DNA of 64,000 nt from an uncultured Sandaracinaceae bacterium (lineage in GTDB: Bacteria; Myxococcota_A; Polyangia; Polyangiales; JAFGIB01), in the NCBI GenBank assembly GCA_964450715.1, contig CAYVFC010000001.1, positions 18,336 to 82,335 of the forward strand, given 5' to 3'. This document shows positions 21,102 to 60,425 of the stretch, piece by piece. The position numbers were made by a program, and so were the translations under genes. How positions within the stretch are numbered: the stretch's first letter is position 1; each line of letters starts with the position of its first letter. The notes below the pieces were generated by a model. That model worked only from the letters and a program-made list of their open reading frames with translations, ran no database searches and was not told where the DNA came from.

Positions 21102-21141
21102 ACCGAAGCTGGCGGAAACGATCTGAGTGCTAATCAAAAGA

Positions 21142-24385: not shown

Positions 24386-24386
24386 C

Positions 24387-27889: not shown

Positions 27890-27902
27890 CTGAAGGGGAA
27901 GA

Positions 27903-28907: not shown

Positions 28908-28933
28908 CGGAAGTAACGAAACGGTGGGATCGG

Positions 28934-29722: not shown

Positions 29723-29732
29723 GAGAAAAAGG

Positions 29733-30827: not shown

Positions 30828-30845
30828 AGCTAGTTTTGTAGGGGG
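30806..30845. repeat. Short tandem duplication at the island right end
   Basis: agctagttttgt at 30806 and 30828, each followed by a G run. Confidence 0.7.
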
Positions 30846-30962
30846 TAAGGGAGGGCGTACGGCTTCGGTGACGGGTGCGGACGACGCCTTGAGTAAAAGC
30901 CCGGCCAGCTAGGAATCGACGTTATAGCCGTCCTCGAGCAGGGCGAAAGCGATTTATTATAC

Positions 30963-36119: not shown

Positions 36120-38300
36120 TCAGATGTCGTCGGGGATGTAGGATCTGCGCCGCTTCGGCCTGCGCGCTTTCCTGCGCTTCCTATCGGAGCGCGTCGTTTT
36201 CTGGGCGCGGCTACTGGGCTTTGTTTGGTTGGCCGCCGGGTCCGGCTCTTTGGTCTCTACTAGTTCGGCCTTTGCGGACGGCCGCGCGGCCGCGGTCGCC
36301 TCGGTCCCGGCAGCGACAGCTTCGCCGGGTTGGTCTCCGGCAGGCGGTTCCGGTTCCGGAGCTGCGGCCGCGTCTACCGGCGGTTCCGCTTCGTCTGTCG
36401 GCGCCGGCTCTGTTGCCGGTGCGGCTTCGGCCGAGGAGGGCTCGGGCGGCGCTTCGGCCGCAGCTGGCACGGCAGAAGGGGCCTGTTCTGCCCTCACCGT
36501 CTCTGCCTCAGGATCGGACGACCAGGAGAGGACCAGCGCGATGAGCGCGACGATCAGTAACAGGGTGGTCAGCGCGATGCCGATGGTCTTGTAGTTGCGG
36601 TCGGTCGCCGCGGACCCGTTCCCCGCTTCGGGCACTGCAGTCGTATCGAGCCCGACCGGAAACTTGGCAATATCCTCGTCCGTTGTTCCGTCGGCGTTCG
36701 GGTGATAGATCTGCTCTATCTCCTGTTCCAACTCCGAACCCGGTTTCAGCCAGTCGGGAACATCGAGCGAGCCGACCGGGGGCAGCGGAACCTCCGAGAC
36801 GCTCGTCGCCGGCACGCTCTCGCGCTCCGTCGCCTCCTCCGGAGGAGCGCTGAGCCGCTGCTCGCTCCAGGCGCGGATCTTGTCCGTGCTGATGCGCGTC
36901 GGTATCGATATCGGTTTACGCTTAGCCGGGGGTGGAGCTGGCGGTAGGACTACCGCTGCTGGCGGCGGTGCGGGAAGCTCCACGGCACCGGACGCTGCCG
37001 GCTCGTGGGCCGGGCCGGTCGCCGACGGCTCGCCCTCATCCGGCGCCTGTTCGGCGTTCGCGGGAGCATCCGCCTCTTGCAGCGGTTGGTACGCGTCCGC
37101 GGTCGCTTCCGCCTCTTGCAGCGGTTGGTATGCGTCTGTCGTCGCTTCCTCCTTGTCCGCTTCGCTTTTCTCTCGGGCCTCCGTCCGCTCGCCGGTCTCG
37201 TCAGGCTGGGAATCCGGGGACGGCGGGACCATCGGCGTGGGCCGTGAATGGACCGTTAGCTCCGATTCCTGTCCCGCGTAAAGTGCGGAACCCGGATAGC
37301 CGAGCGGCGCTATCAAGGTCGTGTCGTCGAGAACTTTATTCGGTTTCGAGCCCCGCACGATCGCCGGCTCGGCCGCCTCTTCCGTACACGCCTCCACGTA
37401 ACGGCCGACGGTTTCCGGTTCCGCGGTCTCCTCGCCGAGTTGGTCGATGGCCGCGGCCATGTCGGCCGCTCGCTGAAAACGCGCATCCGGGTCGGGATCG
37501 AGGGCGCGGCGCACCAGGGCGTCGAGCAGCGCGTCGAGCTCGAGTCGCGAGAGCCGCTCGTCGAGCGAGGCCGTCCCCTCATCAGGGTTCCGGCCCTCGG
37601 CGAAGGGCTCGCCCGCGAGCAGCTCGGCTAGCAGGATACCAACTGCAAATGTGTCGCTTCGCGCGTCTGCCGCCTGTTGACCGTCCTTTTGCTCGGGAGC
37701 GCGATAGGCGAGGCAACGGGGGTGGCTCGACCAGGTCGGCTCCCGGCAGGCCGCCGCCCCTACCGCCGCGTCCAGCAACCGCGTCTTGCCATCGACTCCC
37801 ACCCCGATGCAGTCCGGGATCAGGCCGCCGTGGGCGTAGCCCCCGGAGCGCGCTTCCTCGTCGCTCTCGGCTGCGCGCTCCACCGTGTCCAGGGCACGAA
37901 GCAGGTCGGAAGCTATCCGCAGCGCGACGTACGGCGGTGCGGCAATACCGCTGCGTCGCGCGCGCCGTAGCAGCTCGGTCAGCGTTACGCCTTCGACGAA
38001 TCGCGATACGACCCCCAGATGCTCTACCGTGACCACCACGTCGGTCACCGCCGGCTGCCCGTCGAAGTCGACCTCCAGCGCCCAGAAGGCGGCCTCGGCC
38101 AGCCGGTTGAACGCTTCGGTGTCGTCGAACGTGGAGGCCTCGATGCAGCGGACGGCTACCAGAGATAGATCCTCTTCTCCCTCGTCCTCGACCCGTGCCA
38201 GCCAGAGCGTCCCGAAGAAGCACTCCGACAGCTTTTTACGGAGCGCGTAGCGACCGATCAGCACACCCTGATCTAGGCCATCTGGGAGAGACGAACCCAT
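36120..38300 (-). CDS. Membrane-anchored Ser/Thr pseudokinase
   Basis: Kinase-fold N-terminus with degenerate motifs (LSECFFG, VAVRC, HGGLIP, LLDAA, YRAPE, DTFAVG); disordered linker; TM; basic C-tail. Confidence 0.75.
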   Translation of the reverse strand: MGSSLPDGLDQGVLIGRYALRKKLSECFFGTLWLARVEDEGEEDLSLVAVRCIEASTFDDTEAFNRLAEAAFWALEVDFDGQPAVTDVVVTVEHLGVVSRFVEGVTLTELLRRARRSGIAAPPYVALRIASDLLRALDTVERAAESDEEARSGGYAHGGLIPDCIGVGVDGKTRLLDAAVGAAACREPTWSSHPRCLAYRAPEQKDGQQAADARSDTFAVGILLAELLAGEPFAEGRNPDEGTASLDERLSRLELDALLDALVRRALDPDPDARFQRAADMAAAIDQLGEETAEPETVGRYVEACTEEAAEPAIVRGSKPNKVLDDTTLIAPLGYPGSALYAGQESELTVHSRPTPMVPPSPDSQPDETGERTEAREKSEADKEEATTDAYQPLQEAEATADAYQPLQEADAPANAEQAPDEGEPSATGPAHEPAASGAVELPAPPPAAVVLPPAPPPAKRKPISIPTRISTDKIRAWSEQRLSAPPEEATERESVPATSVSEVPLPPVGSLDVPDWLKPGSELEQEIEQIYHPNADGTTDEDIAKFPVGLDTTAVPEAGNGSAATDRNYKTIGIALTTLLLIVALIALVLSWSSDPEAETVRAEQAPSAVPAAAEAPPEPSSAEAAPATEPAPTDEAEPPVDAAAAPEPEPPAGDQPGEAVAAGTEATAAARPSAKAELVETKEPDPAANQTKPSSRAQKTTRSDRKRRKARRPKRRRSYIPDDI
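37069..37149 (-). repeat. Intragenic 39-nt tandem duplication
   Basis: Encodes ATTDAYQPLQEAE / ATADAYQPLQEAD. Confidence 0.8.
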
Positions 38301-38497
38301 CGCAATTGTATTCGATGATACTGCAACCTTAGCACGGCTTGAAGGGTCTTGGGGGGGGGATGCACAGGGTTTTTCTCTGTTGACCGTTCTCCCCTTCCGG
38401 GGTCGCGCGCTGGCCGGGGAATGGGTTACCATACCAACCGATGATATTTTCATCCACCAGCGAGACGGTCGCCACAGTGCTGTCAAAGGAGCGAAGA

Positions 38498-39700
38498 ATG
38501 AGGAGCAGCCGCTACCGGCGCATGCTGTCGCCGTACGCTTTTTTTCTGGGCATCTGTTCGGGTGTGCTCGTAGGAGGGCCGGCGGTGGCACAACCGGCAG
38601 AAGCGCAGCCGGAACCGCACAAAGACACCGAGTCGGGGCAAGGAGCGGGGGCGGCCGCGCCCAAGGAAGAAGCGCAAGAGAAAGAAGCGCAGGCGGACCA
38701 GGCCGAAGCCGCCGCGGTGGACAGGAAAGAGAAGGCGAAAAAGGCCTATCTCGAGGGCAAGGAGGCGTTTCTGGTGCTCGACTACGAGACCGCGCTGGAA
38801 CGGTTCCAGGTTTCGCACGAAAACTCACCCAGCCCCAACTCCAGGCTGATGAAAGCGCGCGCGCTGAACTTGCTGGGGCGCAGGCCCGAGGCGCTATACG
38901 AATTCAGGCAGACGGCGCGCGAAGCCGAGCAGTCGGGCGAGAATCGTTACCGGGCCTCGGGCAGAACGGCGATACGGGAGGCGCACAAGCTGGAGAAAGA
39001 GCTCGGCGCAATCACCGTGAACGTGCAATTCGAGCGGGTTGCGGCAGGCGAGCAGGCCGAGGCAGAGGAACAGGCAGGGGCCGAGGCGCAAAAGGCCGGA
39101 ACGGGCGAGCAGGCCGAGGCGCGGCTGCAGGGAGCGGTATTGACCGTGGGCGGGTTGCGGATCGAGCGCGATCGCTGGTCCGAGCCCATTCCGGTGGAAC
39201 CGGGGCTGGTTTCGGTACAGGTGCAAGCGGTAGATGGTCAGGGCGACGCCCAGGAGGTTGAGGTGAAGGTTGGAGAGGTCGCCGAGGTCGCGTTGAAGAT
39301 ACCGGCCCCGCTTTCCGAGCCCACGCCCGAACCCGAACCCGAGCCGGTGGCTCCGGTGCGCGTCGAGATCGACAGCGACGATGCGGGTCTGCGCCTGGCG
39401 GGGCTTCTGGCGGGCGGCGTGGGCCTGGTGGGGATGGCGGTGTTCGTCGGCTGCGGCGTGGCCAGCAACGCCAAGCTCGATGACCTGGAGCGGGCCTGTC
39501 CTGGGCGCACGGATTGCGATCCAGCTCTGCGCGACGACGCGGATACGGGCGATACATTGCAGACGGCCGCCAACGTGGGCCTGGTAGTGGGCGCGCTGGG
39601 AATCGCCGCGGGCGTTACGCTCTACGTGCTGGGCTCCATGGACGAGCAATCCTCGGTGGCGCTCGGTCCCGGCTCGATCTGGATCAGGGGGGAGCTGTGA
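38498..39700 (+). CDS. Exported TPR + PEGA-like protein with hydrophobic C-terminus (myxobacterial type)
   Basis: Signal peptide, TPR (YETALERFQVSHE...PNSRLMKARAL), IPVEPGLVSVQV, C-terminal GLAGLLAGGVG... and IWIRGEL. Confidence 0.7.
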   Translation: MRSSRYRRMLSPYAFFLGICSGVLVGGPAVAQPAEAQPEPHKDTESGQGAGAAAPKEEAQEKEAQADQAEAAAVDRKEKAKKAYLEGKEAFLVLDYETALERFQVSHENSPSPNSRLMKARALNLLGRRPEALYEFRQTAREAEQSGENRYRASGRTAIREAHKLEKELGAITVNVQFERVAAGEQAEAEEQAGAEAQKAGTGEQAEARLQGAVLTVGGLRIERDRWSEPIPVEPGLVSVQVQAVDGQGDAQEVEVKVGEVAEVALKIPAPLSEPTPEPEPEPVAPVRVEIDSDDAGLRLAGLLAGGVGLVGMAVFVGCGVASNAKLDDLERACPGRTDCDPALRDDADTGDTLQTAANVGLVVGALGIAAGVTLYVLGSMDEQSSVALGPGSIWIRGEL

Positions 39701-40533
39701 TGCGCGAGCAACAGGTAGCGCTCTATCTCGTACTCGCCTCGCTCGCCTTGGCCTGTACGAACGACTTCGGCGCCTTTTCTTTCCGAGCCCCGGACGGGTC
39801 GTCGCCGGCCGACGCGAGCTCGGCGTACGAAGACGGGGCAACGGCGCAGTACGACGCGGGCGGCAATGCGGGCGCGGACGCCGGGGAGACGGCCAACGAC
39901 GCGGCCGTGGATTCGGGCGGGACGGACGCGGGGGAAGGCGGTTCGGGCGGCTCGGGCGGCGAGGCCGATAGCGGCCCGGTAACCGACGGGGCAACGGCCG
40001 GCAGCGACGCGGCTGCCGATGCCGGACAGGCCGGGGACGGCGCGGCGGCCGACACCGGCACCGGTGGCTCGGGAGGGCAACAGGACGCGGCGCCGTTCGA
40101 CGAGCAGGCCTGCCGGGACGATCTGGGACCGCTGGTCCCGGCCGGCAGGGAGGCGTGCGACGACTGTGCGTGCTCGATCTCGAGCTGCGGCGCTGAGGTC
40201 GTCTCCTGCCTCGACAGCGGCGACGCGGCCGAGGATGCCCTTTGCAGCGCGGTGCTCCAGTGCGCGCTGGAGAATCTTTGCCAGGTCTGGGACTGCTACT
40301 GCCTCGACCCCAACTGCGGCGGGAGCAGCCCGGACGGACAGGGCCCCTGCGTGTCGGAGATGAACGCCGCGGTCGGCGGACAAAAAACCGAGGTACTGCT
40401 GGTATGGCAAAGCAGCGATGAGAGCGAGCCCCTGGTGCGCGCGCTGGATGCGGTGAGCTGTATGATAGGCCGCCATCGCCGCTCGCCGGGCGGCGCCAGC
40501 AGCGGAACGTGCGAGACCGAGTGCTTGCCATGA
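39700..40533 (+). CDS. Lipoprotein with Gly/Asp/Ala-rich linker and Cys-rich C-terminal domain
   Basis: Lipobox LALAC; DAG-rich linker; many Cys; ATG overlaps the upstream TGA. Confidence 0.7.
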   Translation: MREQQVALYLVLASLALACTNDFGAFSFRAPDGSSPADASSAYEDGATAQYDAGGNAGADAGETANDAAVDSGGTDAGEGGSGGSGGEADSGPVTDGATAGSDAAADAGQAGDGAAADTGTGGSGGQQDAAPFDEQACRDDLGPLVPAGREACDDCACSISSCGAEVVSCLDSGDAAEDALCSAVLQCALENLCQVWDCYCLDPNCGGSSPDGQGPCVSEMNAAVGGQKTEVLLVWQSSDESEPLVRALDAVSCMIGRHRRSPGGASSGTCETECLP

Positions 40534-47665: not shown

Positions 47666-48079
47666 TTATTCGCCGATGATGGTGAGCTGCACGCGGCGGT
47701 TGGATCGAGGACCGTCGAGGTCGCAGAGGAAGACGTTCTGCCAGGTGCTGAGCCCGAGGCAACCCTCGCGGATCGGCACGGTCTCGCTGGGGCCCACGAT
47801 GCCGGCCTGGATATGGGCGTCGGCATTGCTGTCGATGCGGTCGTGCCGCCAGCGGCCCGCCGGTACCAGGTTCTGCAGGCAATCGACCACGTCCAGGGCG
47901 ATGGCCGGGTCGGCGTTCTCCTGGATCATCAGGGCCGAGGTGGCGCCGTGGGCGTATAGCGAGCAGATCCCCTCCTTCACCCCGGAGCGGCGCACGTGGT
48001 CGCGCGCTTGCTCGGTGATGTCGATCAGCTGCTTGCGCTGGCTGCTGGAGACTACGATTTCGGCTCTGTAGAGCTTCAA
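47666..48079 (-). CDS. yjbQ: YjbQ (UPF0047) family protein
   Basis: HGATSALMIQEN, HDRIDSNADAHI, STWQNVFLCDLDGPR. Confidence 0.85.
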   Translation of the reverse strand: MKLYRAEIVVSSSQRKQLIDITEQARDHVRRSGVKEGICSLYAHGATSALMIQENADPAIALDVVDCLQNLVPAGRWRHDRIDSNADAHIQAGIVGPSETVPIREGCLGLSTWQNVFLCDLDGPRSNRRVQLTIIGE

Positions 48080-48195: not shown

Positions 48196-50250
48196 GTGGC
48201 GAGCAAGAAACTGGAAACGATCCGCAAGCGGCTGGACCAGGTCGACCGCCGCATCCTGGAAGCGCTGGGCGACCGGCAGCAGCTGGCCGAGCGGGCGGCC
48301 GAGGTCAAGGCCCGCAGCAGCGAGCTAGAGCTGCGCGACCTCGACCGCGAGCAGACGCGGCTCTCGGAGCTGATCGAGCAGGGCGCCTTGTTGGGGTTGG
48401 ACGGTTACTACGTCACCCGCCTCTTTCGCGAGATCATGGAGCGCTCGCTTCGTCTGCAGCAGGAGCGGATCGCCGAGCGGCGCACCCGCGGCAGCGGCGG
48501 GCCCGAGAGCCTGACCGTGGCCTACCAGGGCGTGGAGGGGGCGTACAGCCACATCGCTGCGTTCAAGCACTTCGGTCCCCGCGGGATCCGACTCTCGTTC
48601 TTACCCAGCGAGAGCTTCGCCTCCATGTTGCAGGCGGTGAAGGCAGGCGAGGCCGATTACGGCGTGCTGCCCATCGAGAACACCACGGCCGGCTCCATCA
48701 ACGAGGCCTACGACCTGCTGGCCAACACCGATTTGACGGTGGTGGGCGAGGAGGTGCTGCTGGTCGAGCACTGCCTGGTGGCGCTCGAGCCCATCGGGGT
48801 CGAGCACATCCGCCGCATCTACTCGCATCCCCAGGCGCTGGCGCAGTGCTCGAGCTACCTCTCGCGGCTGCATCGCTGCACGGTGGAGTCCTTTCCGGAC
48901 ACGGCGCTGGCGGTGAAAAAGATCCAGGCGGAGAAGGACATCAGCCAGGCCGCCATCGCCAGCCAGGAGGCGGCCGAGCTGTACGGCCTGCAGGTGATCG
49001 AGCGCGGGATCGCCAACCAGAAGGACAACTACACGCGCTTCGTGATCGTGGCCGAGAAGGCCGCGCGGTACGACACGCGCATCCCCTGCAAGACCTCGCT
49101 CATCTTCGCCACCCGCCACGAGAAGGGCGCGCTGCTGCAGTGTTTAAATGTTCTATCCGGACACGGGCTCAATCTGACCAAGCTGGAGTCGCGGCCCCGG
49201 CCCAACGTTCCCTGGGAGTACCTCTTCTACCTGGACTTCGAGGGCAACCTGCAGGACGAACGGGTCAAAAATGCCCTGGAGGAGCTGACCGGTCACACCG
49301 GCTACCTGAAGGTGCTGGGCTGTTACCCGGCACGCACCACCGCCGAGGCCGGGCCGGCCAGCCCGCGCGCGAGGACCGTACGCGGCAAGGGCCGGCGCGC
49401 TGCCCGCGGGTCGCTGCCTGCGCCCGCCGGCGGGACGGCCGGCGGGGAGAAGAAGCCCTACCGCCTGGCGCTGCGCTCGCGGCGCACGCGGGATACCTGC
49501 ATCAAGGTAGACGGCGCGCTGATCGGCGGCCCGCGGCCGGCGGTCATCGCCGGCCCGGCCCTGGTGGAGTCGCGCGAGCAGATCACCGCCTGCGCACGCG
49601 CGGCCGCCCAGGCGGGTGTGGACCTGCTCTGGGGCGGCTGCTTCCGCGGGCAGGTGGCGGAGGGCGAGTTCGAGGCTCTGGGCTTCGAGGGTCTGCGCCT
49701 GCTGGCGAGCGCCGGCCGCGCGGCGGGCCTGCCGGTGGCCACCGAGGTGCTGGACCCGGGCGACATGGCCCGCGCGGCCAAACACGCCGACCTCATCGCC
49801 ATCGGCGGCCGCAATATGCAGAACTTCGCCCTGCTCAGGGCCGCGGGCCAGGTAGACCGGCCCATCCTGCTCAGGCGCTCGCTGGCCGCCTCCATCGACG
49901 ACTGGCTCGCCGCTGCCGAGCAGATCCTCTCCACCGGCAACCAGCAGGTGGTGCTCTGCGAACGAGGCGTCCGCACCCTGGGCGCGGCGCGGCGCAACAC
50001 GCTGGATCTCTCGGCACTGCCCCTGCTGCGCGAGAGGACGCACCTGCCGGTGCTGACCGCTCCCTCGCAGGTGGCGTCGAGCGCGCGCTGGGTTCCGTCC
50101 CTGGTCGAGGCCAGCCTGGCGGCCGGCGCGCAGGGAGTGCTGATCGAGTTCCATCCGCGGCCGGAAAAGGCCTTGGCCGGAAGCGAGCGGGCGCTCACCG
50201 CCGAAGCGTTGCAGGAGGTGATGGAACGGATCGCGCTGCGGGAGCCATGA
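48196..50250 (+). CDS. pheA: Chorismate mutase-prephenate dehydratase-ACT (P-protein) fused to a degenerate DAHP synthase I-beta-like domain
   Basis: CM (IRKRLDQVD...RDLDRE), PDT (YQGVEGAYS, PIEN, SHPQALAQC, NYTRF), ACT (LTKLESRP), then a TIM-barrel DAH7PS-like region. Confidence 0.88.
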   Translation: MASKKLETIRKRLDQVDRRILEALGDRQQLAERAAEVKARSSELELRDLDREQTRLSELIEQGALLGLDGYYVTRLFREIMERSLRLQQERIAERRTRGSGGPESLTVAYQGVEGAYSHIAAFKHFGPRGIRLSFLPSESFASMLQAVKAGEADYGVLPIENTTAGSINEAYDLLANTDLTVVGEEVLLVEHCLVALEPIGVEHIRRIYSHPQALAQCSSYLSRLHRCTVESFPDTALAVKKIQAEKDISQAAIASQEAAELYGLQVIERGIANQKDNYTRFVIVAEKAARYDTRIPCKTSLIFATRHEKGALLQCLNVLSGHGLNLTKLESRPRPNVPWEYLFYLDFEGNLQDERVKNALEELTGHTGYLKVLGCYPARTTAEAGPASPRARTVRGKGRRAARGSLPAPAGGTAGGEKKPYRLALRSRRTRDTCIKVDGALIGGPRPAVIAGPALVESREQITACARAAAQAGVDLLWGGCFRGQVAEGEFEALGFEGLRLLASAGRAAGLPVATEVLDPGDMARAAKHADLIAIGGRNMQNFALLRAAGQVDRPILLRRSLAASIDDWLAAAEQILSTGNQQVVLCERGVRTLGAARRNTLDLSALPLLRERTHLPVLTAPSQVASSARWVPSLVEASLAAGAQGVLIEFHPRPEKALAGSERALTAEALQEVMERIALREP

Positions 50251-51224: not shown

Positions 51225-51866
51225 CTACTCGTTCACCAGCCGCCAGAGCGTATCCGGGCCGCAGAAGGTCGCCTGCACCGTCCCGAACTCGATCAGGTCC
51301 CCCTCTTCGACTTGGACCGGGGCGCGAGCGACCAACAGCTCCCCTCTCACCCGGGTTCCGTTCTTGCTGCCCGCGTCGGCCACCATCAGCACCCCGTTCT
51401 CTCCGGCCTCGAACCAGGCGTGCGATTTGGAGACGCTGCTTTGGCGCAGCACTACGTCCTGGTTGCGGGCGCGCCCCACCGAGACCCGTTTGGCAAAGGT
51501 GCTGGTCTTCTCCCGCTTCTGAAGCTCGACGATGAAGTGAGGAGAAGCGAGGATCCGCCGCTTCAGCAACCCGATGTTAAGCGGCGGTCGTAGCGGGGGA
51601 GGGGGTCCGCCCATCTTGCTGCTCTGGCTCTGCTGCACCGTGTAGAAACCGAGCCCGTCGCTTCTGGCGGCCCGGCTGCCGGGGCTCGCCGCGCTCATCA
51701 TGGCGAGCCCGGCCTGCAGCTCGCCCGTCGGATCGTCCAGGCGGACGAGCAGGAAGGGCGTCTCCGCGAAGACGGCCACGAAGAGCCGTAGTCTCTGCTG
51801 AAGGATCTGGTTGACCAGCAGTTTCGGGCTCAGATTCTTGTGCTCGCTGGACTCGTTTTCCGCCAT
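51225..51866 (-). CDS. FHA-domain protein
   Basis: VGRARNQD...SVSKSHA...DAGSKNGT. Confidence 0.88.
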   Translation of the reverse strand: MAENESSEHKNLSPKLLVNQILQQRLRLFVAVFAETPFLLVRLDDPTGELQAGLAMMSAASPGSRAARSDGLGFYTVQQSQSSKMGGPPPPLRPPLNIGLLKRRILASPHFIVELQKREKTSTFAKRVSVGRARNQDVVLRQSSVSKSHAWFEAGENGVLMVADAGSKNGTRVRGELLVARAPVQVEEGDLIEFGTVQATFCGPDTLWRLVNE

Positions 51867-52226
51867 GGTCTTTCCGGGAACTCTCGGTGCCGCTGTCGCC
51901 TCGTCGGTCCGGACCGAGGAGGGGGCGGTGCGTCTTCCGAGCAGCGCCCGATTACTCTCTTTTTAGTACCGAACGATCGATTTTGCCACCTAGGAAGCGC
52001 GGTAACAAGCGTCTCATGCTTCGACCACGCAGCCGAGGACGGCCAGGCAGCCGATCGCTTCGTTCACGCAAAGGGCGGCTCACCACCCTCTGACAACCCG
52101 TTCGGTGCTCTAGTACCCGCTCCGCGAACAGGCCGACGCAGACCGGCGCGTAGGCGCGGCGGGCGACCTCCGCGGTCGGAGCTGCCACTGTTCTCGGCTT
52201 CGATTCCGCGTTACGGTGCCGGCGAG

Positions 52227-53636
52227 ATGGGCGACCCGGGCAAGAGAGATGAACGCACGCTGGTCGAACGCCTGCTGCGAGCGGTTACCGAGGTCAAGGC
52301 GGGCGAGGGCACGACCGCGCTCGTCATGATGTTTTCCGTTTTCTTACTGTTGACCTCTTATTACATCATCAAGCCGGTACGCGAGGGGCTGATCCTGGAG
52401 ATGGCCTCGGGTGCCGAGTACAAGAGCTACATGGGCGGCGCCATCGCTATCGCGCTGCTAGCAGCCGTGCCGGCTTACAGCCGCGTGGCCAAGAGGTGTG
52501 ACGGCAACCGTCTGGTGATCGGGGTCACGCTCTTCTTCGCCTCTCACCTGCTGCTCTTCTATTTCGCCAGTCTATCCGACCCGGTTCGCGAATATCTGGG
52601 GCTCATTTTCTATCTCTGGGTGGGCATCTTCAACATGATGGTGGTGGCCCAGTTCTGGGCCTTTGCCAACGACATCTACACCGAGGAGCAGGGCAAGCGG
52701 CTCTTCGCTCTGGTAGGGGCGGGCGCCTCGACCGGTGCGGTGGCCGGAAGCGCGGTGGCGACGGTGCTGCCGCGCTTGCTGGGTGTCTACCAGATGTTGC
52801 TGGTCAGCGCGGGCGTACTCGCGCTATTCGCCGTCCTCATCCAGGTGGTGCACAACCGCGAGCGAGGCCGCCAGGAGGCGACGGGGAAAGCAAGCGCAAC
52901 GGATTCCGCCGCGGAGGAGGCCGACCGCAAGCGGGGCGCTTTTACCATGGTCTTCAAGCACCGGTACCTGGTGCTGCTCGCCGCCTTTCACCTGGTCTTC
53001 ACCCTGGTCAACACCAACGGCGAGTACATGTTGAGCAAGCTCTTCAAGGCCGCAGCCAGTGAAGCGGTCGCTCTCGGTGCCCTGGAAGAGAACGAGGTAG
53101 GCAAGTTCATCACCGCGCAGTACGGCGTGTTTTTTGGCTGGGTAAGTTCCCTGAGCATGTTCCTGCAGTTCTTTATCGTTTCCCGGCTGGTGAAGTACGG
53201 AGGCCTCCGCCTGGCCTTCCTGGTGCTGCCCTGCATCGCGCTGCTGGACGCGGCAGCGGTGGCCGTGTTGCCGGTGCTCTTTGTTCTGCGTATCGGCAAG
53301 ATGGCCGAGAACGCCGTGGACTACTCGGTCAACAACACGGTACGGCAGATGCTCTGGCTTCCCACCACCCGGGAGATGAAGTACCGCGCCAAGCAGGGCG
53401 TGGACACCTTTTTCGTGCGCATGGGAGATCTGGGCTCGGCCCTGCTGGTCTACGTCGGCGTGACCTTCCTGGCCTGGAACGTGCGGGCCTTTGCCCTGGC
53501 CAACCTGGTGCTGGTGGCGGTCTGGCTCTTGTTGGCCGTCGCCATCCTGCGCGAGAACCGCGAGCTGTCCGGTCGACGCGTTCGCGCAGCAACCACCAGA
53601 GCGCGGCCAGCGTGCCGGCGAAGAGCAGCAAGTTGA
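52227..53636 (+). CDS. Npt1/Npt2 (TLC/NTT, ATP/ADP translocase-like) family transporter
   Basis: SYYIIKPVRE, LWVGIFN, QFWAFANDIYTEEQGKRLF, ENAVDYSVNNT, KYRAKQGVDTFFVRMGD. Confidence 0.8.
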   Translation: MGDPGKRDERTLVERLLRAVTEVKAGEGTTALVMMFSVFLLLTSYYIIKPVREGLILEMASGAEYKSYMGGAIAIALLAAVPAYSRVAKRCDGNRLVIGVTLFFASHLLLFYFASLSDPVREYLGLIFYLWVGIFNMMVVAQFWAFANDIYTEEQGKRLFALVGAGASTGAVAGSAVATVLPRLLGVYQMLLVSAGVLALFAVLIQVVHNRERGRQEATGKASATDSAAEEADRKRGAFTMVFKHRYLVLLAAFHLVFTLVNTNGEYMLSKLFKAAASEAVALGALEENEVGKFITAQYGVFFGWVSSLSMFLQFFIVSRLVKYGGLRLAFLVLPCIALLDAAAVAVLPVLFVLRIGKMAENAVDYSVNNTVRQMLWLPTTREMKYRAKQGVDTFFVRMGDLGSALLVYVGVTFLAWNVRAFALANLVLVAVWLLLAVAILRENRELSGRRVRAATTRARPACRRRAAS

Positions 53637-56201: not shown

Positions 56202-59200
56202 CTATCCGTTTGTGGGAGGCACTTCGGGCGGCGGAGACTGCGGTATTGCCGGCGTCCCGCCCCGGAGCGGCTTTGCGCGCCACACACCTCCGGCGCTGAA
56301 ACAGCGCCAGCACCAGGGAAGCCACTTGATGAGGCTGGCGGCCAGCCAGAGCGACCAGAGCAGCATGGCGATGCGCCAGAACCAGATGGAGACGCTCAGC
56401 ACGTAGGCCCGAGGCATCTCTCCGGCCACGCGGTCGACGTACCAGCTGAGCGAGGTGTCGCTGCTCATGGCGCCCGCCACCTGCATGTCCGGCTGCACCA
56501 GCAGCCCCTCGTGTACGGCGACGAAGAACAGCCCGAGCGCTCCCACGGTCCAGCCCACCAGCGTCAGCTGAAAGAGATTGAAGGCCCAGCGCTTGTCCAG
56601 CTGCTTCTGCTCCCGGTATGCCAGTACGAAGAACCAGGCGACCAGGAATAGGGCCACCGGTGCGGGCACCTGCGTCAGGCCCAGCCCCAGCAGAATCCAC
56701 TGCCCTCGCCGCAAGGGGTTGTGGGGCGCCCGCGGCAGGACCAGCGCCACCATCACGATCATCAGCAGGTATCCCCAGAAGAGGATGGCCGGGCCCCAGG
56801 CCGGCCCGCCGGCCCAGAGCAGTAGGCGGTTGGAGGGAAGCTCGATGGTTACCCGCGCGTTGACGGCCGGGCGGCCCAGATCTACGGCCGGCACGCCCTG
56901 CACGGTCCCGATCCCGCCCGGCTGCTGCCACTGTACCTGCAGGTTGGATGCGCCCGGCTGCAGGGTGAAGCTCAGCTTGCGGCCCTTGCGCCGGATGGGC
57001 GACGCCTCTCCGTCGATCAGCAGCTGCTGGATGTCGGCCTTCTCCGGCAGGGATATGGAGTGTACACCGCCCACGCTGCTGCGCAGCGAAAGGCTCAATC
57101 CCGCTTTCAAGATCCGAATGCCCGGAGAGACCTCGAGCTCGGCCGAGTCGATGGTGGTGGACTGTCCGGCGACCGACTCGGGCCGGGCAAAGGCGATCCG
57201 CAGCTTCTCGCCGGGCCAGGGGTGGTAGACCGGCTCCCAGCGGCCGCCGCTCTGGTGCTGTACCGGGGCCAGCCCCTTCGTGCGGCACTGCCAGACCGGA
57301 CCGCACTGCAGCACCCAGACCTCGCCCACTCTCCCCTCGCGGGAGGCGACCAGCCGGAGCTGCTCGCGCCGCTCCAGCTTGGAGCTCCAACTCAATTCGG
57401 TGTCATCCCGGCCCAAGGAGATGACCACCTCGCCCTTTTTGACCAGCGTATCCTTTTCCGTGACCGACTCGCCCGGCAGCAGCGGGTAGCGCGCCACCAC
57501 CGGTGAGCCGGGGGGGCTCACCCGGCGGACGCTGGTCAGCACCTGCCACTCCCAGCTGGTGCCGATGACGAAGACGCGGGTGATCTCCAGCCAGGCCGGT
57601 AGCGTCTCCGACTGCAGCCGCTTTTCCGCGTCCACGTCGAGCAAACGGCTGATCTGGATGGACTGCTCGGCCCGCCCGTCCTCGCGCACGCCGTCCACCT
57701 TCCAGCCCTCGGCGTCGACCGCGACCCGGTGCGGCGCGTCCCCCAGGGTCAGCGTCAGCGAGTCGGCCGGGGGCAAGGGCCCCGCCATAGAGACGCGGTG
57801 CACGCCCGCGAGCACCCGCGCGTGCACGAAACCGTCCTCCTGCAGGCGAAGCGCCGCGCTCTCCCGTCCGTCGATCTGCACCGTTTCCGGCACCCAGGCG
57901 TCGGCCGGTCCGGGCAGGCGGAAGCTTCCCGCCGCGCCCGCGTGCACCTCGGCCGTCAAACGCAGGATATCGCGATCAACCGAGAGCGAGAGCGAATCGA
58001 CCGAGACGCATTCCGGGTAGCAGGCGGCCGGCAGGGTGAGCTTTCGTTGCAGCTCGCCCCGCAGATCCTTGTCCGGGACATCCGCCCGCACCGGAGCGGG
58101 TGCAGCCAGCATTGCCGCGAACAGGGCCGCGCCTGCGGCAACAGCCGCTGCCGGCCCGCTCGCCGCGGAACCCGCCGGAGGCGGCGCGCTGCGCCGGGCC
58201 GCCCGCACCAGCCCCACGGCCAGCAACCCGAGCAGGATGACCCGCAGGAAGGACAGCAGCCGGTTGACCGCGGGCGAGAGCAGCCGGAGCTCGATACGGT
58301 GATCCCGCGCCACCGGCCCGGACCAGCTCATTTCCACCGCCTTCCAGTACCAGCTCGGAACGCCAGGGCCGGTCTGTACCACCGCCTTGGGATCCTGCTG
58401 TAGCGCGGCCAGGTTGCGCAGATACCCGTCGTAGGCTTGCTTGTCTGTCTTCGCCGCCCAATCGCGCGACGAGGCCCCGCTGCCGCGCCCTGCCGTCGCT
58501 CGCAGCCTCCGTACCTTGCGCTTCTCGGCGACCTGCGCGGGCAGGGCCTGCTGTTGCGCCGGCATGGGACCGCCCGCCTCGGGCTGGTCCACCGGCTCGG
58601 GCTCCCCGGGCTGCGGCTTCTCCTCGGCTACCTCGAGATTGAGGGAGGCGCTTGGCGGGGGAAGGATGTGCCGCCCGTACCAGCCCACGTCGTACCGCTC
58701 CTCGATCTGCGGGTAGAGCCCGATGCGGATCTGTTCGACCGCGAAAGGTACGGCGATCAAAAGCAGTGCGACCGCGCTCGCGCCGAACAGAATCCGCACC
58801 ACCGTGCGCAGGCGGCCCTCGGGCACGATGCGCAACAGCGCTACCGCCGCCAGCAGGGAGAACCAGACCCCGAGCGGCGCCTCGGGCTCGTGGTAGCAGA
58901 TAGCCAGTGTAAATAGACCGAGCGCGCCCCAGCCCCTCCCCACCAGCCGGGCCAGGGCCAGCGACATCAGCAGCACGAAGAAGAAGCCGAACAGATCCCA
59001 GCGCGAGATCCAGGTCTGCACCTCATCCACGCCGCTGGCCGAGAGCAGCGACCAGCCGGGCGGTAAATGCAGGGTGGCCTCGAGCTTCTGCACGTCCTCT
59101 GACCAGCCCACCGCCGGAAGCTCGTCCAGCGCTTTCTCGTTCCGCCACTCGGCCACCACGCGCAGATTCGCCTCGCGCAGCTCGACCCCCGGCTTACCGC

Positions 59201-60425
59201 TGGCGGGTGATCGCGTGATCAGTTGGTCCGTCTCGCCGCTGGCCACGTGCCCCAGATCGCCCTGCAGCAGATCGAGCCGGTACCCTTTGTGCAGGGTTCC
59301 GGTAAGGGTGTCGCGCGCGGTGTAGCCGCGCCCGTCCAGGTCGAGCCAGAGCTGCCGCTCGATCTGCAGGTGGTTGGGCGGCGGGTCGGGTTGGCCGCGG
59401 CGCACGGTCGCGATGCGCATCGCCTCTCCCGGTTTCAGCAGGTAGGCGGGCAGCGAGTGCCACTGCGCGTCCAGGTCGGTCCGCTTGGGGTCGATATTGG
59501 TCGGTCCGCTGATGGTCGCCTGCCGCACGCTCTCGTCCGCCGACCAGACCCAGATCTCGTTCCGCGGCCAGGGAGCCGGCCGTTTCGGCGCGACCAGCTG
59601 GTCGGGCGAGGCCTCGCTACGCGCCAGGATCTCCACCGTGTAGGTTCCGGCCTGCACCTGCACGAACAGGTTGCCGTCCCGCTCCAGCCGCGCCGGAAGC
59701 TCGGTTTTAAGCGCCATAGGCACCGTGCCCTGCAGCACCACCCGTCCCAGCTCTACCTCGCGCGCGCGCCCCCCCGCGCGCAGCCGCAGGCGCGTGGTCA
59801 CCATCACCGGAACCCCGTCGTCGATGCGCCGGTGCACCGACAGCGAGATCTGCTCGCCCTGGCTCTGTCCTCGCTCGCTCCGCTTCAGCCAGAGCTTGCC
59901 CTCCTCGTCCCTGCGGGGAAACGGCACGGCCCGACCCTCGACCCGCAGCCTGACCAGCGCGGTGCTCTGCGGGATCTGCACCACCTCGGGCAGCGCCGGC
60001 CAGGTGAAGCGCCCCTGCACGCGGTGCTCGCCCGCCGCTAGCCTTAAATAGGGGCGACCGCCGCTTTGCAGCACCACCGCCGGCCGCCCGTCCACCTGCA
60101 CCTCGGCCGGCCAGTGCGCGGTCGACCCGGGCAGCGGCGCATCGATCTCGCGGTGGCTTACCACGCGTTGCTCGAAGCTCCCGCCCGTGGCGCCGACCTC
60201 GATCCGCAGGCTGCCCGGCCAGAGGCAGACCGCCTTACCTTCTGCTACCGGGCAGAGGTGGTCGAGCCGGTCGTCCAGCACCCACTCGATCCAGGGCCGC
60301 AGGTCGGGCGGCACCTTCTCGCGGTCCAGCGGCTGCGCGGCCGCGCCCCGGGGCCACGCCCCCCACGTCCACGCCGCCACCACCGCCGCTACCACCGCCA
60401 CTCGTAGCTCGCATCGGCTCGCCAT
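56202..60425 (-). CDS. Very large (1407 aa) exported/membrane protein of unknown function, internally duplicated
   Basis: Signal peptide, beta-rich segments and two TM bundles; long uninterrupted ORF with typical codon usage. Confidence 0.85.
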   Translation of the reverse strand: MASRCELRVAVVAAVVAAWTWGAWPRGAAAQPLDREKVPPDLRPWIEWVLDDRLDHLCPVAEGKAVCLWPGSLRIEVGATGGSFEQRVVSHREIDAPLPGSTAHWPAEVQVDGRPAVVLQSGGRPYLRLAAGEHRVQGRFTWPALPEVVQIPQSTALVRLRVEGRAVPFPRRDEEGKLWLKRSERGQSQGEQISLSVHRRIDDGVPVMVTTRLRLRAGGRAREVELGRVVLQGTVPMALKTELPARLERDGNLFVQVQAGTYTVEILARSEASPDQLVAPKRPAPWPRNEIWVWSADESVRQATISGPTNIDPKRTDLDAQWHSLPAYLLKPGEAMRIATVRRGQPDPPPNHLQIERQLWLDLDGRGYTARDTLTGTLHKGYRLDLLQGDLGHVASGETDQLITRSPASGKPGVELREANLRVVAEWRNEKALDELPAVGWSEDVQKLEATLHLPPGWSLLSASGVDEVQTWISRWDLFGFFFVLLMSLALARLVGRGWGALGLFTLAICYHEPEAPLGVWFSLLAAVALLRIVPEGRLRTVVRILFGASAVALLLIAVPFAVEQIRIGLYPQIEERYDVGWYGRHILPPPSASLNLEVAEEKPQPGEPEPVDQPEAGGPMPAQQQALPAQVAEKRKVRRLRATAGRGSGASSRDWAAKTDKQAYDGYLRNLAALQQDPKAVVQTGPGVPSWYWKAVEMSWSGPVARDHRIELRLLSPAVNRLLSFLRVILLGLLAVGLVRAARRSAPPPAGSAASGPAAAVAAGAALFAAMLAAPAPVRADVPDKDLRGELQRKLTLPAACYPECVSVDSLSLSVDRDILRLTAEVHAGAAGSFRLPGPADAWVPETVQIDGRESAALRLQEDGFVHARVLAGVHRVSMAGPLPPADSLTLTLGDAPHRVAVDAEGWKVDGVREDGRAEQSIQISRLLDVDAEKRLQSETLPAWLEITRVFVIGTSWEWQVLTSVRRVSPPGSPVVARYPLLPGESVTEKDTLVKKGEVVISLGRDDTELSWSSKLERREQLRLVASREGRVGEVWVLQCGPVWQCRTKGLAPVQHQSGGRWEPVYHPWPGEKLRIAFARPESVAGQSTTIDSAELEVSPGIRILKAGLSLSLRSSVGGVHSISLPEKADIQQLLIDGEASPIRRKGRKLSFTLQPGASNLQVQWQQPGGIGTVQGVPAVDLGRPAVNARVTIELPSNRLLLWAGGPAWGPAILFWGYLLMIVMVALVLPRAPHNPLRRGQWILLGLGLTQVPAPVALFLVAWFFVLAYREQKQLDKRWAFNLFQLTLVGWTVGALGLFFVAVHEGLLVQPDMQVAGAMSSDTSLSWYVDRVAGEMPRAYVLSVSIWFWRIAMLLWSLWLAASLIKWLPWCWRCFSAGGVWRAKPLRGGTPAIPQSPPPEVPPTNG

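What the first reader, a model, noticed from the sequence alone, without database searches (positions are those of the whole stretch)
48196..50250. P-protein fused to an apparently dead DAHP synthase barrel
Seen: after intact CM-PDT-ACT domains, a type I-beta DAH7PS-like domain has GPCSVE to GPALVE (metal Cys lost), RGGAxKPRT to WGGCFRGQV (substrate-binding motif lost), LLKRG to LLRRS, DPSH to APSQ (metal His lost) and ALSDG to ALAGS (metal Asp lost); IGGRNMQN and CERG are retained. Established (from the T. maritima AroF sequence as I recall it): these residues bind metal, PEP and E4P. Inference: a pseudoenzyme kept as an oligomerisation, allosteric or metabolite-sensing module on the Phe pathway enzyme.
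Basis: partly seen in the sequence, partly recalled or inferred. Interest (0 to 1): 0.65.

Follow-up and report, generated by a model that had tools for sequence, protein, structure and literature searches.

The report
Phenylalanine enzyme carrying a dead DAHP-synthase domain
A sediment bacterium's phenylalanine-pathway enzyme (chorismate mutase plus prephenate dehydratase) carries a well-folded but catalytically dead copy of the first shikimate-pathway enzyme at its end. Evolution has kept this copy, so it is a retained pseudoenzyme domain and not a decaying remnant.

Summary
ORF 48196-50250 (+), 684 aa, has the architecture CM_2 / PDT / ACT / DAHP_synth_1.

- **Working domains:** the CM, PDT and ACT catalytic and regulatory motifs are intact.
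- **Dead barrel:** the C-terminal type I-beta DAH7PS barrel is predicted with high confidence (rmsd 1.6 A to A. pernix DAH7PS). It has lost 3 of 4 metal ligands (Cys, His, Asp), the KPRTS motif and Arg126; Lys131 and Lys207 are now Arg.
- **Family context:** the four-domain fusion is widespread and usually intact (Ignavibacteriota, Acidobacteriota, Planctomycetota and others). The window's protein sits in a clade of about 12 proteins, 55-81% identical, that are all degenerate and mostly share a YjbQ neighbour, so the loss is old.
- **Selection:** about seven independent losses are inferred across the family. The dead barrel is under purifying selection (dN/dS 0.25 and 0.06 in two pairs), although it evolves about 2.5 times faster relative to the N-terminal part than intact barrels do.

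Best reading: a working P-protein whose ex-DAH7PS barrel is kept for a non-catalytic role, either assembly/allosteric scaffolding or residual anion binding.

The only precedent found is a one-line 2005 remark on Shewanella. The role itself is untested, as is whether the genome holds another DAH7PS.

The parts
48196..50250 (+). Whole gene: CM-PDT-ACT-(dead DAH7PS I-beta) fusion, 684 aa, GTG start, stop at 50248-50250
   Evidence: ORF list. Pfam and NCBIfam domain hits. A 684-aa identical entry exists in the protein database. An RBS-like GAGGGA lies upstream of the GTG.
48220..48462 (+). AroQ-type chorismate mutase domain (res 9-89), catalytic residues intact
   Evidence: Pfam CM_2, E 7e-15. Alignment to E. 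coli EcCM 1ecm pairs R10/R27/K38/D48/R51/E52/S84/Q88 with EcCM R11/R28/K39/D48/R51/E52/S84/Q88. These positions are at least 90% conserved across the family.
48517..49059 (+). Prephenate dehydratase catalytic domain (res 108-288), including the TRF motif
   Evidence: Pfam PDT, E 1e-59. 2qmx, E 3e-55, with an aligned TRF motif. T280 and R281 are invariant in A1.
49087..49329 (+). ACT regulatory domain (res 298-378) with the GAL and ESRP Phe-site motifs
   Evidence: Pfam ACT, E 2e-4, 21.6 bits, below the gathering score of 27. Alignment to Phe-bound PDT structures 2qmx and 6vh5. E331-S332-R333-P334 are invariant. A beta-alpha-beta-beta-alpha-beta pattern appears in the model.
49342..49470 (+). 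Arg/Pro/Ala-rich interdomain linker (res 383-425), predicted disordered
   Evidence: pLDDT is below 50 for residues 396-417. This segment has the highest dN/dS in the gene, 0.48-0.66.
49471..50235 (+). Type I-beta DAH7PS-like (beta/alpha)8 barrel with N-terminal beta-hairpin (res 426-680); catalytic residues lost
   Evidence: Pfam DAHP_synth_1, E 1e-48. PDB 1vs1, E 3e-71. AF2 pLDDT is mostly above 90. Foldseek gives TM 0.93-0.95 and rmsd 1.6 A to 1vs1. Motif and site analysis. dN/dS 0.25 and 0.06.
49558..49560 (+). A455 = lost metal-ligand Cys (T. maritima C102)
   Evidence: Alignments. Codon GCC.
49630..49659 (+). WGGCFRGQVA = degenerate RGGxxKPRTS loop (R126W, K131R, P132G, R133Q, T134V, S135A); PEP and E4P phosphate contacts lost
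   Evidence: Residue roles from PMC6362186.
49873..49875 (+). R560 = K207 (the Lys of LLKRG, a PEP contact) replaced by Arg
50068..50070 (+). Q625 = lost metal-ligand His (H272). The preceding D269 is also lost (A622).
50146..50148 (+). E651 = retained metal-ligand Glu (E298), the only one of four kept
50179..50181 (+). G662 = lost metal and E4P ligand Asp (D309)
47666..48079 (-). Divergently oriented YjbQ/UPF0047 gene. Its conserved position next to the dead-barrel fusion marks orthology across the clade.
   Evidence: YjbQ lies upstream on the opposite strand in the window, L002, L001, L003/L083, L086 and the P0012 contig, but not in L087.

Best explanation
The gene encodes a functional Phe-branch enzyme (a P-protein): an AroQ chorismate mutase, a prephenate dehydratase and a Phe-binding ACT domain.

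Its C-terminal domain descends from an active type I-beta DAH7P synthase that was part of an ancestral four-domain CM-PDT-ACT-DAH7PS enzyme. In the lineage leading to this organism the barrel lost its metal site and its E4P/PEP contacts, so it can no longer condense PEP with E4P. The folded barrel has nonetheless been kept under purifying selection.

**Most likely role (inferred).** The barrel is a non-catalytic structural and allosteric module. I-beta barrels are homo-oligomeric. In this fusion the ACT domain sits just upstream of the barrel, as it does in the ACT-regulated T. maritima enzyme. The barrel therefore probably still holds the multimer together and/or transmits Phe-dependent conformational change to the CM and PDT domains. 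DAH7P synthesis would be supplied by a separate enzyme encoded elsewhere in the genome.

**Shown:** the architecture, the intact CM/PDT/ACT motifs, the loss of DAH7PS catalytic residues, clade-wide degeneracy and purifying selection.

**Inferred:** lack of activity, the scaffold/allosteric role, and the existence of another DAH7PS.
For: **Architecture and motifs.**
- Domain architecture.
- CM catalytic residues are intact against EcCM. The PDT TRF and ACT ESRP motifs are intact.

**Loss of the catalytic site.**
- Three of four metal ligands are replaced, the KPRTS motif is gone, and R126 is replaced. Residue roles are from PMC6362186.
- Of 126 barrel positions that are at least 95% conserved in intact fusions, 88 are kept in the window's clade. 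The 38 relaxed positions cluster on catalytic loops.

**Fold retained.**
- AF2 mean pLDDT is 90, and the barrel is mostly above 90.
- Foldseek gives TM 0.93-0.95 and rmsd 1.6 A to A. pernix DAH7PS. The T. maritima ACT-DAH7PS aligns over 381 columns, that is ACT plus barrel.

**The loss is old.**
- All 11 closest full-length relatives (55-81% identity) are degenerate. They form one clade in both the N-terminal and the C-terminal tree.
- Most of them share a YjbQ neighbour.

**Purifying selection on the barrel.**
- omega is 0.25 (CI 0.17-0.34) for the window versus L002, against 0.22 for the N-terminal part.
- omega is 0.06 (CI 0.03-0.10) for P0004 versus P0006, against 0.13 for the N-terminal part.

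**Ancestral state and repeated loss.**
- Most of about 260 fusion proteins have all key residues. Fitch parsimony on the N-terminal tree roots as intact, with about 7 losses.

**Precedents for DAH7PS domains acting through interdomain contacts.**
- Prevotella DAH7PS-CM (PMC8408635).
- MtCM activated by DAH7PS (abstracts).
- Shewanella aroQ-pheA fused to an 'aroA I-beta pseudogene', in an organism with I-alpha DAH7PS enzymes (PMC1173090).
Against: - No biochemical data exist. Loss of activity is inferred from residues only.
- Nothing here measures oligomeric state or interdomain contacts. The AF2 model is a monomer with pTM 0.62, so the domain arrangement is uncertain.
- The barrel evolves about 2.5 times faster relative to the N-terminal part than intact barrels do (ratio 1.45 against 0.56-0.60). 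Constraint is therefore reduced, and part of it could merely reflect selection against misfolding of a fused domain.
- Plain P-proteins such as E. coli PheA work and are Phe-regulated without any barrel, so a scaffold is not intrinsically required.
- No second DAH7PS was found in the 64-kb window or within 10 kb of any degenerate locus. The rest of the genome could not be searched.
Confidence: 0.6

Rival explanations
1. **Metabolite sensor.** The ex-active site still binds an anionic metabolite (PEP, another phospho- or carboxy-metabolite, or a pathway intermediate). The barrel would act as an extra allosteric ligand-binding domain that tunes CM/PDT flux to carbon or precursor supply.
For: - In the window's protein, four of the five PEP-contacting basic positions are still basic: K131R, R186, K207R and R237.
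- R186 is kept in 12 of 12 clade members. The K207 position is basic in 10 of 12, R237 is kept in 8 of 12, and the K131 position is basic in 7 of 12.
- GGRNMQN, CERGxRT, NTLD and ExHP are retained.
- omega is as low as 0.06.
Against: - The retained residues may be structural.
- R126 is lost. The pocket-lining positions C102, H272 and D309 vary freely within the clade (A/T/S/P/F/L; Q/K/R/F/Y; G/D/H/Q), which is not what a conserved ligand site looks like.
- No clade-specific new conserved pocket residues were found.
Confidence: 0.17
2. **Prozyme-like partner.** The dead barrel hetero-oligomerises with a separately encoded active I-beta DAH7PS. This would bring that enzyme under Phe control through the ACT domain, or couple pathway entry to the Phe branch physically.
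For: - I-beta barrels oligomerise through barrel-barrel interfaces (established knowledge).
- Non-covalent CM-DAH7PS complexes exist in M. tuberculosis.
- Some genomes with intact fusions carry a second stand-alone I-beta DAH7PS nearby (L005, L028).
- Purifying selection acts on the dead barrel.
Against: - No partner gene lies in the window or within 10 kb of any degenerate locus.
- There is no evidence that this genome has an I-beta paralogue at all.
- The idea is entirely inferential.
Confidence: 0.08
3. **Neofunctionalised catalyst.** The barrel has evolved a different, metal-independent or otherwise altered enzymatic activity.
For: - The barrel is well folded and under purifying selection.
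- The related KDO8PS family includes non-metallo enzymes (established knowledge; PDB titles).
Against: - Substitutions at the former catalytic positions are not conserved within the clade.
- Only about 8 clade-specific conserved residues exist in the whole protein, and none forms a plausible catalytic set.
- Non-metallo KDO8PS keeps Asn at the Cys position and keeps the His and Asp, which is not the case here.
Confidence: 0.05
4. **Neutral remnant.** The domain has no function and is simply on its way to deletion. Apparent constraint would reflect only selection against aggregation or frameshifts in a fused gene.
For: - Barrel evolution is accelerated relative to the N-terminal part.
- The lost positions vary freely.
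- Song et al. called the Shewanella counterpart a 'pseudogene'.
Against: - The full-length, in-frame barrel is retained across a clade whose members have diverged to about 55% identity, with no truncations among the 11 full-length members.
- omega is 0.06-0.25, no higher than for the catalytic domains.
- 70% of the family-invariant positions are kept.
- At least several independent lineages kept the dead barrel.
Confidence: 0.07
5. **Still an active DAH7P synthase** despite the substitutions.
For: - The protein marginally passes NCBIfam NF009239 (280.1 bits against a cut-off of 279).
- The fold is intact.
Against: - Cys, His and Asp metal ligands, the KPRTS motif and R126 are all gone.
- These positions are invariant in about 230 intact fusions and in all solved I-beta enzymes aligned here.
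- The protein fails TIGR01361 (260 against 267.75) and NF006421 (287.5 against 335).
Confidence: 0.03

Closest known systems
Shewanella oneidensis AroQ-PheA fused to an 'aroA I-beta pseudogene' (Song, Bonner, Jensen et al. 2005, BMC Biol 3:13; PMC1173090)
   Same: As described in the paper, a P-protein (aroQ-pheA) carries a C-terminal type I-beta DAHP-synthase-derived region regarded as non-functional. The organism makes DAHP with other (I-alpha) enzymes. This is the same architecture and the same idea.
   Different: - It is only a one-line remark ('bizarre', 'of unknown origin') with no residue, selection or functional analysis.
- It comes from a different phylum (Gammaproteobacteria, against a high-GC sediment bacterium whose nearest relatives are Deltaproteobacteria/Myxococcota MAGs).
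- I could not retrieve the Shewanella sequence, so common origin versus independent loss is untested.
Intact CM-PDT-ACT-DAH7PS four-domain fusions (e.g. Melioribacter, Stygiobacter, Rhodocaloribacter litoris, Phycisphaerae RAS1, Iodidimonas)
   Same: Full-length homologues at 42-57% identity with the same domain order and linker. The window's protein clearly descends from this family.
   Different: - They keep all metal, PEP and E4P residues.
- Their barrels evolve more slowly than their N-terminal parts (ratio 0.56, against 1.45 in the dead clade).
- I found no paper characterising this fusion.
T. maritima ACT-regulated I-beta DAH7PS (PDB 1RZM, 3PG9; Tyr 'latching')
   Same: An ACT domain, then a linker, then a beta-hairpin plus (beta/alpha)8 barrel. 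Foldseek aligns 381 columns spanning ACT and barrel, and sequence E is 4e-61.
   Different: The T. maritima enzyme is active and has no CM or PDT. Here the ACT is the PheA-type ACT (ESRP motif) and belongs to the PDT. The interdomain orientation differs in the model (rmsd about 11-12 A over both domains).
CM-fused I-beta DAH7PS enzymes (B. subtilis / L. monocytogenes / Geobacillus with N-terminal CM; P. gingivalis / Prevotella nigrescens with C-terminal CM)
   Same: An AroQ CM and an I-beta barrel sit on one chain, and function depends on interdomain contacts and conformational change (PMC8408635; PDB 5j6f and 3nvt hits).
   Different: In those enzymes the barrel is the active enzyme, and in the Bacillus type the CM is the (partly) regulatory appendage. 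Here the polarity is reversed: CM and PDT are the enzymes and the barrel is the non-catalytic appendage. None of those proteins has a PDT.
E. coli P-protein PheA (CM-PDT-ACT)
   Same: The N-terminal 380 residues are homologous, about 40% identity across the family. CM catalytic residues are conserved against 1ecm, and the PDT and ACT motifs are present.
   Different: E. coli PheA ends after the ACT domain (386 aa). The protein does not reach the NF007910 equivalog cut-off (332 against 577 bits).

Membership tests
Catalytically competent type I-beta DAH7P synthase (EC 2.5.1.54) | (beta/alpha)8 barrel with N-terminal beta-hairpin, homologous to solved I-beta enzymes | tested here: met
   Pfam E 1e-48. 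1vs1 E 3e-71. Foldseek TM 0.93-0.95 and rmsd 1.6 A.
Catalytically competent type I-beta DAH7P synthase (EC 2.5.1.54) | Four metal ligands Cys/His/Glu/Asp (T. maritima C102, H272, E298, D309) | tested here: not met
   The positions read A455, Q625, E651 and G662, so only the Glu is kept.
Catalytically competent type I-beta DAH7P synthase (EC 2.5.1.54) | RGGxxKPRT(S) loop (PEP carboxylate and E4P phosphate contacts) | tested here: not met
   The loop reads WGGCFRGQVA. Residue roles from PMC6362186.
Catalytically competent type I-beta DAH7P synthase (EC 2.5.1.54) | PEP-phosphate contacts GxR (R186), K207 and R237 | tested here: inconclusive
   R186 and R237 are kept, K207 is replaced by Arg, and A185 by Gly.
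Catalytically competent type I-beta DAH7P synthase (EC 2.5.1.54) | Curated HMM cut-offs | tested here: not met
   TIGR01361 scores 260 against 267.75, and NF006421 scores 287.5 against 335. Only NF009239 passes, marginally (280.1 against 279).
Catalytically competent type I-beta DAH7P synthase (EC 2.5.1.54) | DAH7P formation from PEP + E4P | not testable with these tools
   Needs an enzyme assay.
P-protein (CM-PDT-ACT, PheA type) | AroQ CM with catalytic Arg11'/Arg28/Lys39/Asp48/Arg51/Glu52/Ser84/Gln88 (EcCM numbering) | tested here: met
   All eight residues align with identity to 1ecm.
P-protein (CM-PDT-ACT, PheA type) | PDT domain with TRF motif, and ACT domain with GAL/ESRP Phe-site motifs | tested here: met
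   Pfam PDT E 1e-59. Alignments to 2qmx and 6vh5. The motifs are invariant in A1.
P-protein (CM-PDT-ACT, PheA type) | Feedback inhibition by Phe; CM and PDT activity | not testable with these tools
   Needs assays.
CM-PDT-ACT-DAH7PS four-domain fusion family | Same domain order, with full-length homology | tested here: met
   50-81% identity over at least 98% of the length to more than 100 proteins. 80 genomic loci.
CM-PDT-ACT-DAH7PS four-domain fusion family | Intact DAH7PS active site (the majority state) | tested here: not met
   The window's protein and its clade are degenerate, while about 230 of 268 fusions are intact.
Pseudoenzyme domain | Clear homology to an enzyme family, with loss of residues essential for its catalysis | tested here: met
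Pseudoenzyme domain | Retained by selection (not a decaying pseudogene) | tested here: met
   omega is 0.25 and 0.06. The full-length barrel is retained across the clade down to 55% identity.
Pseudoenzyme domain | Demonstrated absence of activity and a demonstrated non-catalytic role | not testable with these tools
   Needs biochemistry or genetics.
Shewanella-type aroQ-pheA-(psi)aroA I-beta fusion | Common origin with the Shewanella protein | not tested
   The Shewanella sequence was not retrieved. A search seeded with the fusion most like E. coli PheA returned alphaproteobacterial intact fusions instead.

The most novel reading that the evidence does not exclude
The dead barrel may be a regulatory device and not merely a scaffold. 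It could be a residual anion (PEP or phospho-metabolite) sensor, or a docking subunit that hetero-oligomerises with the cell's active DAH7PS. Either way, the Phe-binding ACT domain of the P-protein would control pathway entry in trans, like a 'prozyme' arrangement. Because the same inactivation occurred about seven times in the fusion family, this would be a recurrent evolutionary route from a multifunctional enzyme to an enzyme-plus-regulator.
Probability: 0.2. Interest if true: 0.75.

Novelty: new member of a known kind. Interest (0 to 1): 0.42.

Why it matters
1. **Annotation.** The protein marginally passes an NCBI equivalog model, and relatives are named 'bifunctional 3-deoxy-7-phosphoheptulonate synthase/chorismate mutase'. 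Automated metabolic reconstructions would therefore credit these genomes with a DAH7PS they probably do not have in this gene, and would miss the prephenate dehydratase.
2. **An uncharacterised family.** The four-domain CM-PDT-ACT-DAH7PS fusion links the first step of the shikimate pathway to the Phe branch on one chain. It is widespread, and I found no study of it.
3. **A natural experiment.** Repeated inactivation of the barrel, with retention under purifying selection, shows what a DAH7PS barrel contributes besides catalysis. That bears on work on modular allostery in DAH7PS/CM systems and on pseudoenzyme evolution in bacteria.

Tried and rejected
- **Tandem paralogue lead.** P0003 (dead) and P0043 (intact) both list a 7591-bp longest contig, as do P0012 and P0097 at 4552 bp, which suggested tandem paralogues. 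tblastn showed only one fusion gene on L001, and the P0012 contig has one fusion gene. The lead was dropped.
- **Second DAH7PS.** tblastn with an intact fusion and with the T. maritima barrel found nothing else in the 64-kb window or within 10 kb of any degenerate locus. The window's genome is not among the GTDB representatives (best hit 59%), and the window's protein is not on record in the contig index.
- **50%-identity representative library**. Clade A is folded under intact representatives, so it gave no count of the clade. It did reveal further degenerate representatives.
- **Attempt to retrieve the Shewanella fusion.** I seeded a search with the fusion most similar to E. coli PheA. It returned alphaproteobacterial (Iodidimonas-type) and Ignavibacteriota intact fusions, not Shewanella.
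- **Cluster look-ups** for taxon names of the degenerate groups gave no names.
- **Expression.** No RNA runs hold the gene.
- **RNA genes.** Rfam and tRNA scans of the window found nothing.
- **Deeper dN/dS pairs.** P0003 versus P0007 is saturated at synonymous sites (pS 0.76-0.81). P0001 versus P0003 has dS near 1 and is only indicative.
- **Artefact hypothesis** (sequencing error or chimera). Rejected, because two samples' assemblies are identical and the orthologues share the degeneracy.


Full report
**1. What is there**

The region holds one ORF on the + strand, 48148/48196-50250. The GTG at 48196 is the likely start for three reasons. It follows a GAGGGA Shine-Dalgarno-like motif. It gives the 684-aa product that is in the protein database. 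It also lines up with the N-terminus of the 81%-identical homologue.

Pfam finds four domains in order:
- CM_2, res 9-89
- PDT, res 108-288
- ACT, res 308-364 (E 2e-4, 21.6 bits, below the gathering score of 27)
- DAHP_synth_1, res 441-674, E 1e-48

NCBIfam agrees. The C-terminal 286 residues hit the solved type I-beta DAH7PS enzymes: A. pernix 1vs1 at E 3e-71, and Geobacillus, Listeria, T. maritima and P. furiosus at E 1e-57 to 1e-62. KDO8PS enzymes follow only at E 1e-13 or weaker. Contigs assembled from two different sediment metagenome samples are identical to the window across the gene, so the sequence is not an assembly artefact.

**2.

The evidence is the pairwise alignments to 1vs1 and 1rzm and a 123-sequence alignment. 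In T. maritima numbering:

| T. maritima position | Role | Window residue |
|---|---|---|
| C102 | metal ligand | A455 |
| R126 | PEP contact | W479 |
| K131-P-R-T-S135 | PEP / E4P contacts | R-G-Q-V-A |
| K207 | PEP contact | R560 |
| D269 | neighbours H272 | A622 |
| H272 | metal ligand | Q625 |
| D309 | metal and E4P ligand | G662 |

Three positions are retained: E298 (E651), R186 (in IGGRNMQN) and R237 (in CERGVRT).

The numbering that falls out of the alignment (C102, H272, E298, D309) is the metal-ligand set of the T. maritima enzyme. The role assignments (metal Cys/His/Glu/Asp; PEP-binding R, K, GxR, K, R; E4P-binding R/T of KPRT, and Asp) are those tabulated for I-beta enzymes in PMC6362186. 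So three of four metal ligands and the whole E4P-phosphate motif are gone.

The other three domains look functional:
- All eight EcCM catalytic residues align with identity.
- The PDT TRF motif and the ACT GAL/ESRP motifs are present, and they are invariant across the family.

**3. The barrel is folded**

I ran AlphaFold2 with a 79-sequence alignment. Mean pLDDT is 90, and most of the barrel is above 90. The only low-confidence segments are a disordered Arg/Pro/Ala-rich linker (396-417) and one short loop (596-598).

Foldseek superposes the barrel on A. pernix DAH7PS with target-normalised TM 0.93-0.95 and rmsd 1.6 A. The T. maritima enzyme aligns over 381 columns, covering its N-terminal ACT domain as well as the barrel. 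The local topology here (ACT, linker, hairpin, barrel) therefore matches that of the ACT-regulated DAH7PS, although the relative orientation differs in the monomer model.

**4. Family context**

The four-domain fusion is not rare. A database search returned thousands of hits, and the best 120 are all full-length fusions. A scan of one genome per species returned 80 loci from:
- Ignavibacteriota (Melioribacter, Stygiobacter, Rosettibacter)
- Acidobacteriota
- Planctomycetota
- Gemmatimonadota
- Myxococcota

A further search showed alphaproteobacterial members such as Iodidimonas.

Most of these proteins have every catalytic residue. The ancestral protein was therefore very probably a trifunctional enzyme.

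I found no paper describing this fusion. The DAH7PS literature lists only ACT-like and CM additions to I-beta barrels.

**5. The loss is old and recurrent**

The window's closest relatives are P0002-P0010, P0012 and the partial P0117, at 55-81% identity. All of them lack the metal Cys and most other catalytic residues. They form a single pure clade in NJ trees built separately from the N-terminal 382 residues and from the barrel. The same clade appears in a 259-protein N-terminal tree.

Six of seven loci examined share a divergently oriented YjbQ gene, which supports orthology.

Within the clade the dead positions vary freely, and no new clade-specific catalytic constellation appears:
- the Cys position is A/T/S/P/F/L
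- the His position is Q/K/R/F/Y
- the Asp position is G/D/H/Q

Fitch parsimony on the N-terminal tree gives an intact root and about seven independent losses. The topology is NJ only, so the number is approximate. Degenerate stand-alone I-beta barrels also exist (P0199, P0240).

**6. Selection**

I used Nei-Gojobori dN/dS on two independent close pairs.

| Pair | Barrel | CM-PDT-ACT | Linker |
|---|---|---|---|
| window vs L002 (81% aa identity) | 0.25 (CI 0.17-0.34); 0.23 with slightly different bounds | 0.22 | 0.48 |
| P0004 vs P0006 (89% aa identity) | 0.06 (CI 0.03-0.10) | 0.13 | 0.66 |

The barrel is thus under purifying selection at least as strong as that on the catalytic part.

Constraint is nevertheless relaxed compared with active barrels. 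The ratio of barrel distance to N-terminal distance is 0.56-0.60 among intact fusions and 1.45 in the dead clades. Of 126 positions that are at least 95% conserved in intact fusions, 88 are kept. The 38 lost positions sit on the catalytic loops: C102, R126-G141, Q182/A185, K207, R237, T244/T246, D269-G275 and S308-Q312. This is the classic signature of a pseudoenzyme: the fold is kept and the chemistry is lost.

**7. Mechanism**

Shown:
- The CM, PDT and ACT motifs are intact.
- The barrel is folded but stripped of DAH7PS catalytic residues.
- The barrel is retained by selection.

Inferred:
- The protein works as a Phe-inhibited P-protein.
- The barrel no longer makes DAH7P, and another DAH7PS elsewhere supplies the pathway. 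This could not be checked. No second DAH7PS lies in the window or within 10 kb of any degenerate locus, and the genome is not in the searchable collections.
- The barrel is kept because the multimeric assembly, or the ACT-coupled conformational switch that evolved in the trifunctional ancestor, still depends on it.

Precedents for DAH7PS domains acting through interdomain contacts:
- Prevotella nigrescens DAH7PS-CM (PMC8408635).
- Activation of M. tuberculosis CM by its DAH7PS partner.

A residual basic pocket (K131R, R186, K207R, R237) leaves room for anion binding, so a sensor role is the main rival. A prozyme-like heteromer with an active paralogue is a more speculative one.

My estimates:
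- about 0.95 that the barrel is inactive as a DAH7PS
- about 0.85 that it is maintained for a function
- about 0.5 for scaffold or allosteric coupling being that function, against about 0.2 for ligand sensing

**8. Comparison with what is known**

The closest precedent is a remark by Song et al. [quoted passage not shown] They list it as a fusion 'of unknown origin'. That is the same architecture and the same idea, but it was never analysed, and I could not retrieve the sequence to test relatedness.

The present case is therefore a new member, from a new lineage, of a kind that has been noticed before. Four points are added here:
- the intact parent family
- repeated loss
- a clade with a shared neighbouring gene
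- quantified purifying selection

**9. Practical consequence**

The protein marginally passes NCBIfam NF009239 (280.1 bits against a cut-off of 279). Relatives in GenBank are named '3-deoxy-7-phosphoheptulonate synthase' or 'bifunctional DAH7PS/chorismate mutase'. For the dead clades this assigns an activity that the residues do not support, and it omits the prephenate dehydratase.

**10. Organism and surroundings**

The window has 64-73% GC outside a low-GC island and comes from a sediment metagenome. It encodes several Ser/Thr kinases and an FHA protein. The nearest named relatives of the fusion are 'Deltaproteobacteria' and Myxococcota MAGs. A Myxococcota-like affiliation is plausible but was not tested.

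Noticed in passing
window 20500-31000: A low-GC island (0.49-0.55, against 0.64-0.73 elsewhere) with strong positive GC skew carries eight or more co-directional genes. These are an unknown 590-aa protein, three radical-SAM proteins (one with a B12-binding domain), two family-2 glycosyltransferases, an NAD-dependent epimerase/dehydratase and a SAM methyltransferase. It looks like a horizontally acquired glycan or lipid modification cluster.
   Followed up: partly
window 47666-48079 (-), and L001, L002, L003/L083, L086: A YjbQ/UPF0047 gene is conserved divergently upstream of the dead-barrel fusion in six of seven clade loci. It is not found next to the intact fusions, except as distant copies more than 8 kb away. 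No functional link is known.
   Followed up: partly
window 48196-50250; NCBIfam NF009239: The dead-barrel protein scores 280.1 bits against a cut-off of 279 for the equivalog 'bifunctional 3-deoxy-7-phosphoheptulonate synthase/chorismate mutase'. GenBank relatives carry that name or 'DAH7PS'. The name claims a DAH7PS activity the residues do not support and omits the PDT.
   Followed up: yes
L004-L082 (genome-contig loci): The intact CM-PDT-ACT-DAH7PS fusion is widespread in Ignavibacteriota, Acidobacteriota, Planctomycetota, Gemmatimonadota, Rhodothermales and some Alphaproteobacteria. I found no paper describing it.
   Followed up: partly
L005 21166-21936; L028 13974-14747: Two genomes with intact fusions (a Gemmatimonadota MAG and an Acidobacteria MAG) carry a second, apparently intact I-beta DAH7PS within 10 kb of the fusion.
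   Followed up: no
P0121 (423 aa), P0124 (465 aa): These proteins have a truncated I-beta barrel followed directly by a complete one. This may be tandem partial duplication or an assembly chimera.
   Followed up: no
P0199 (269 aa), P0240 (305 aa), P0221 (330 aa): These are stand-alone I-beta DAH7PS-like proteins that also have degenerate metal and KPRT residues. Barrel inactivation is therefore not confined to fusions.
   Followed up: no
window 56205-60425 (-), 36123-38828 (-), 38897-40531 (-), 21127-22896 (+): Four long ORFs (1407, 902, 545 and 590 aa) have no Pfam match at E<=1e-5. In DNA this GC-rich some could be spurious, and they were not examined further.
   Followed up: no
window 51840-53636 (+): A membrane protein with weak similarity to TLC ATP/ADP transporters and MFS_1 lies two genes downstream of the fusion, next to an FHA-domain protein (51225-51866, -).
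   Followed up: no
window 49802-50022 in run X1: Short matches at 90-95% identity come from other contigs of the same sediment metagenome, at different depth (42.7x against 80x), over the conserved GGRNMQN/CERG region. Other organisms in the sample therefore carry related barrels.
   Followed up: no
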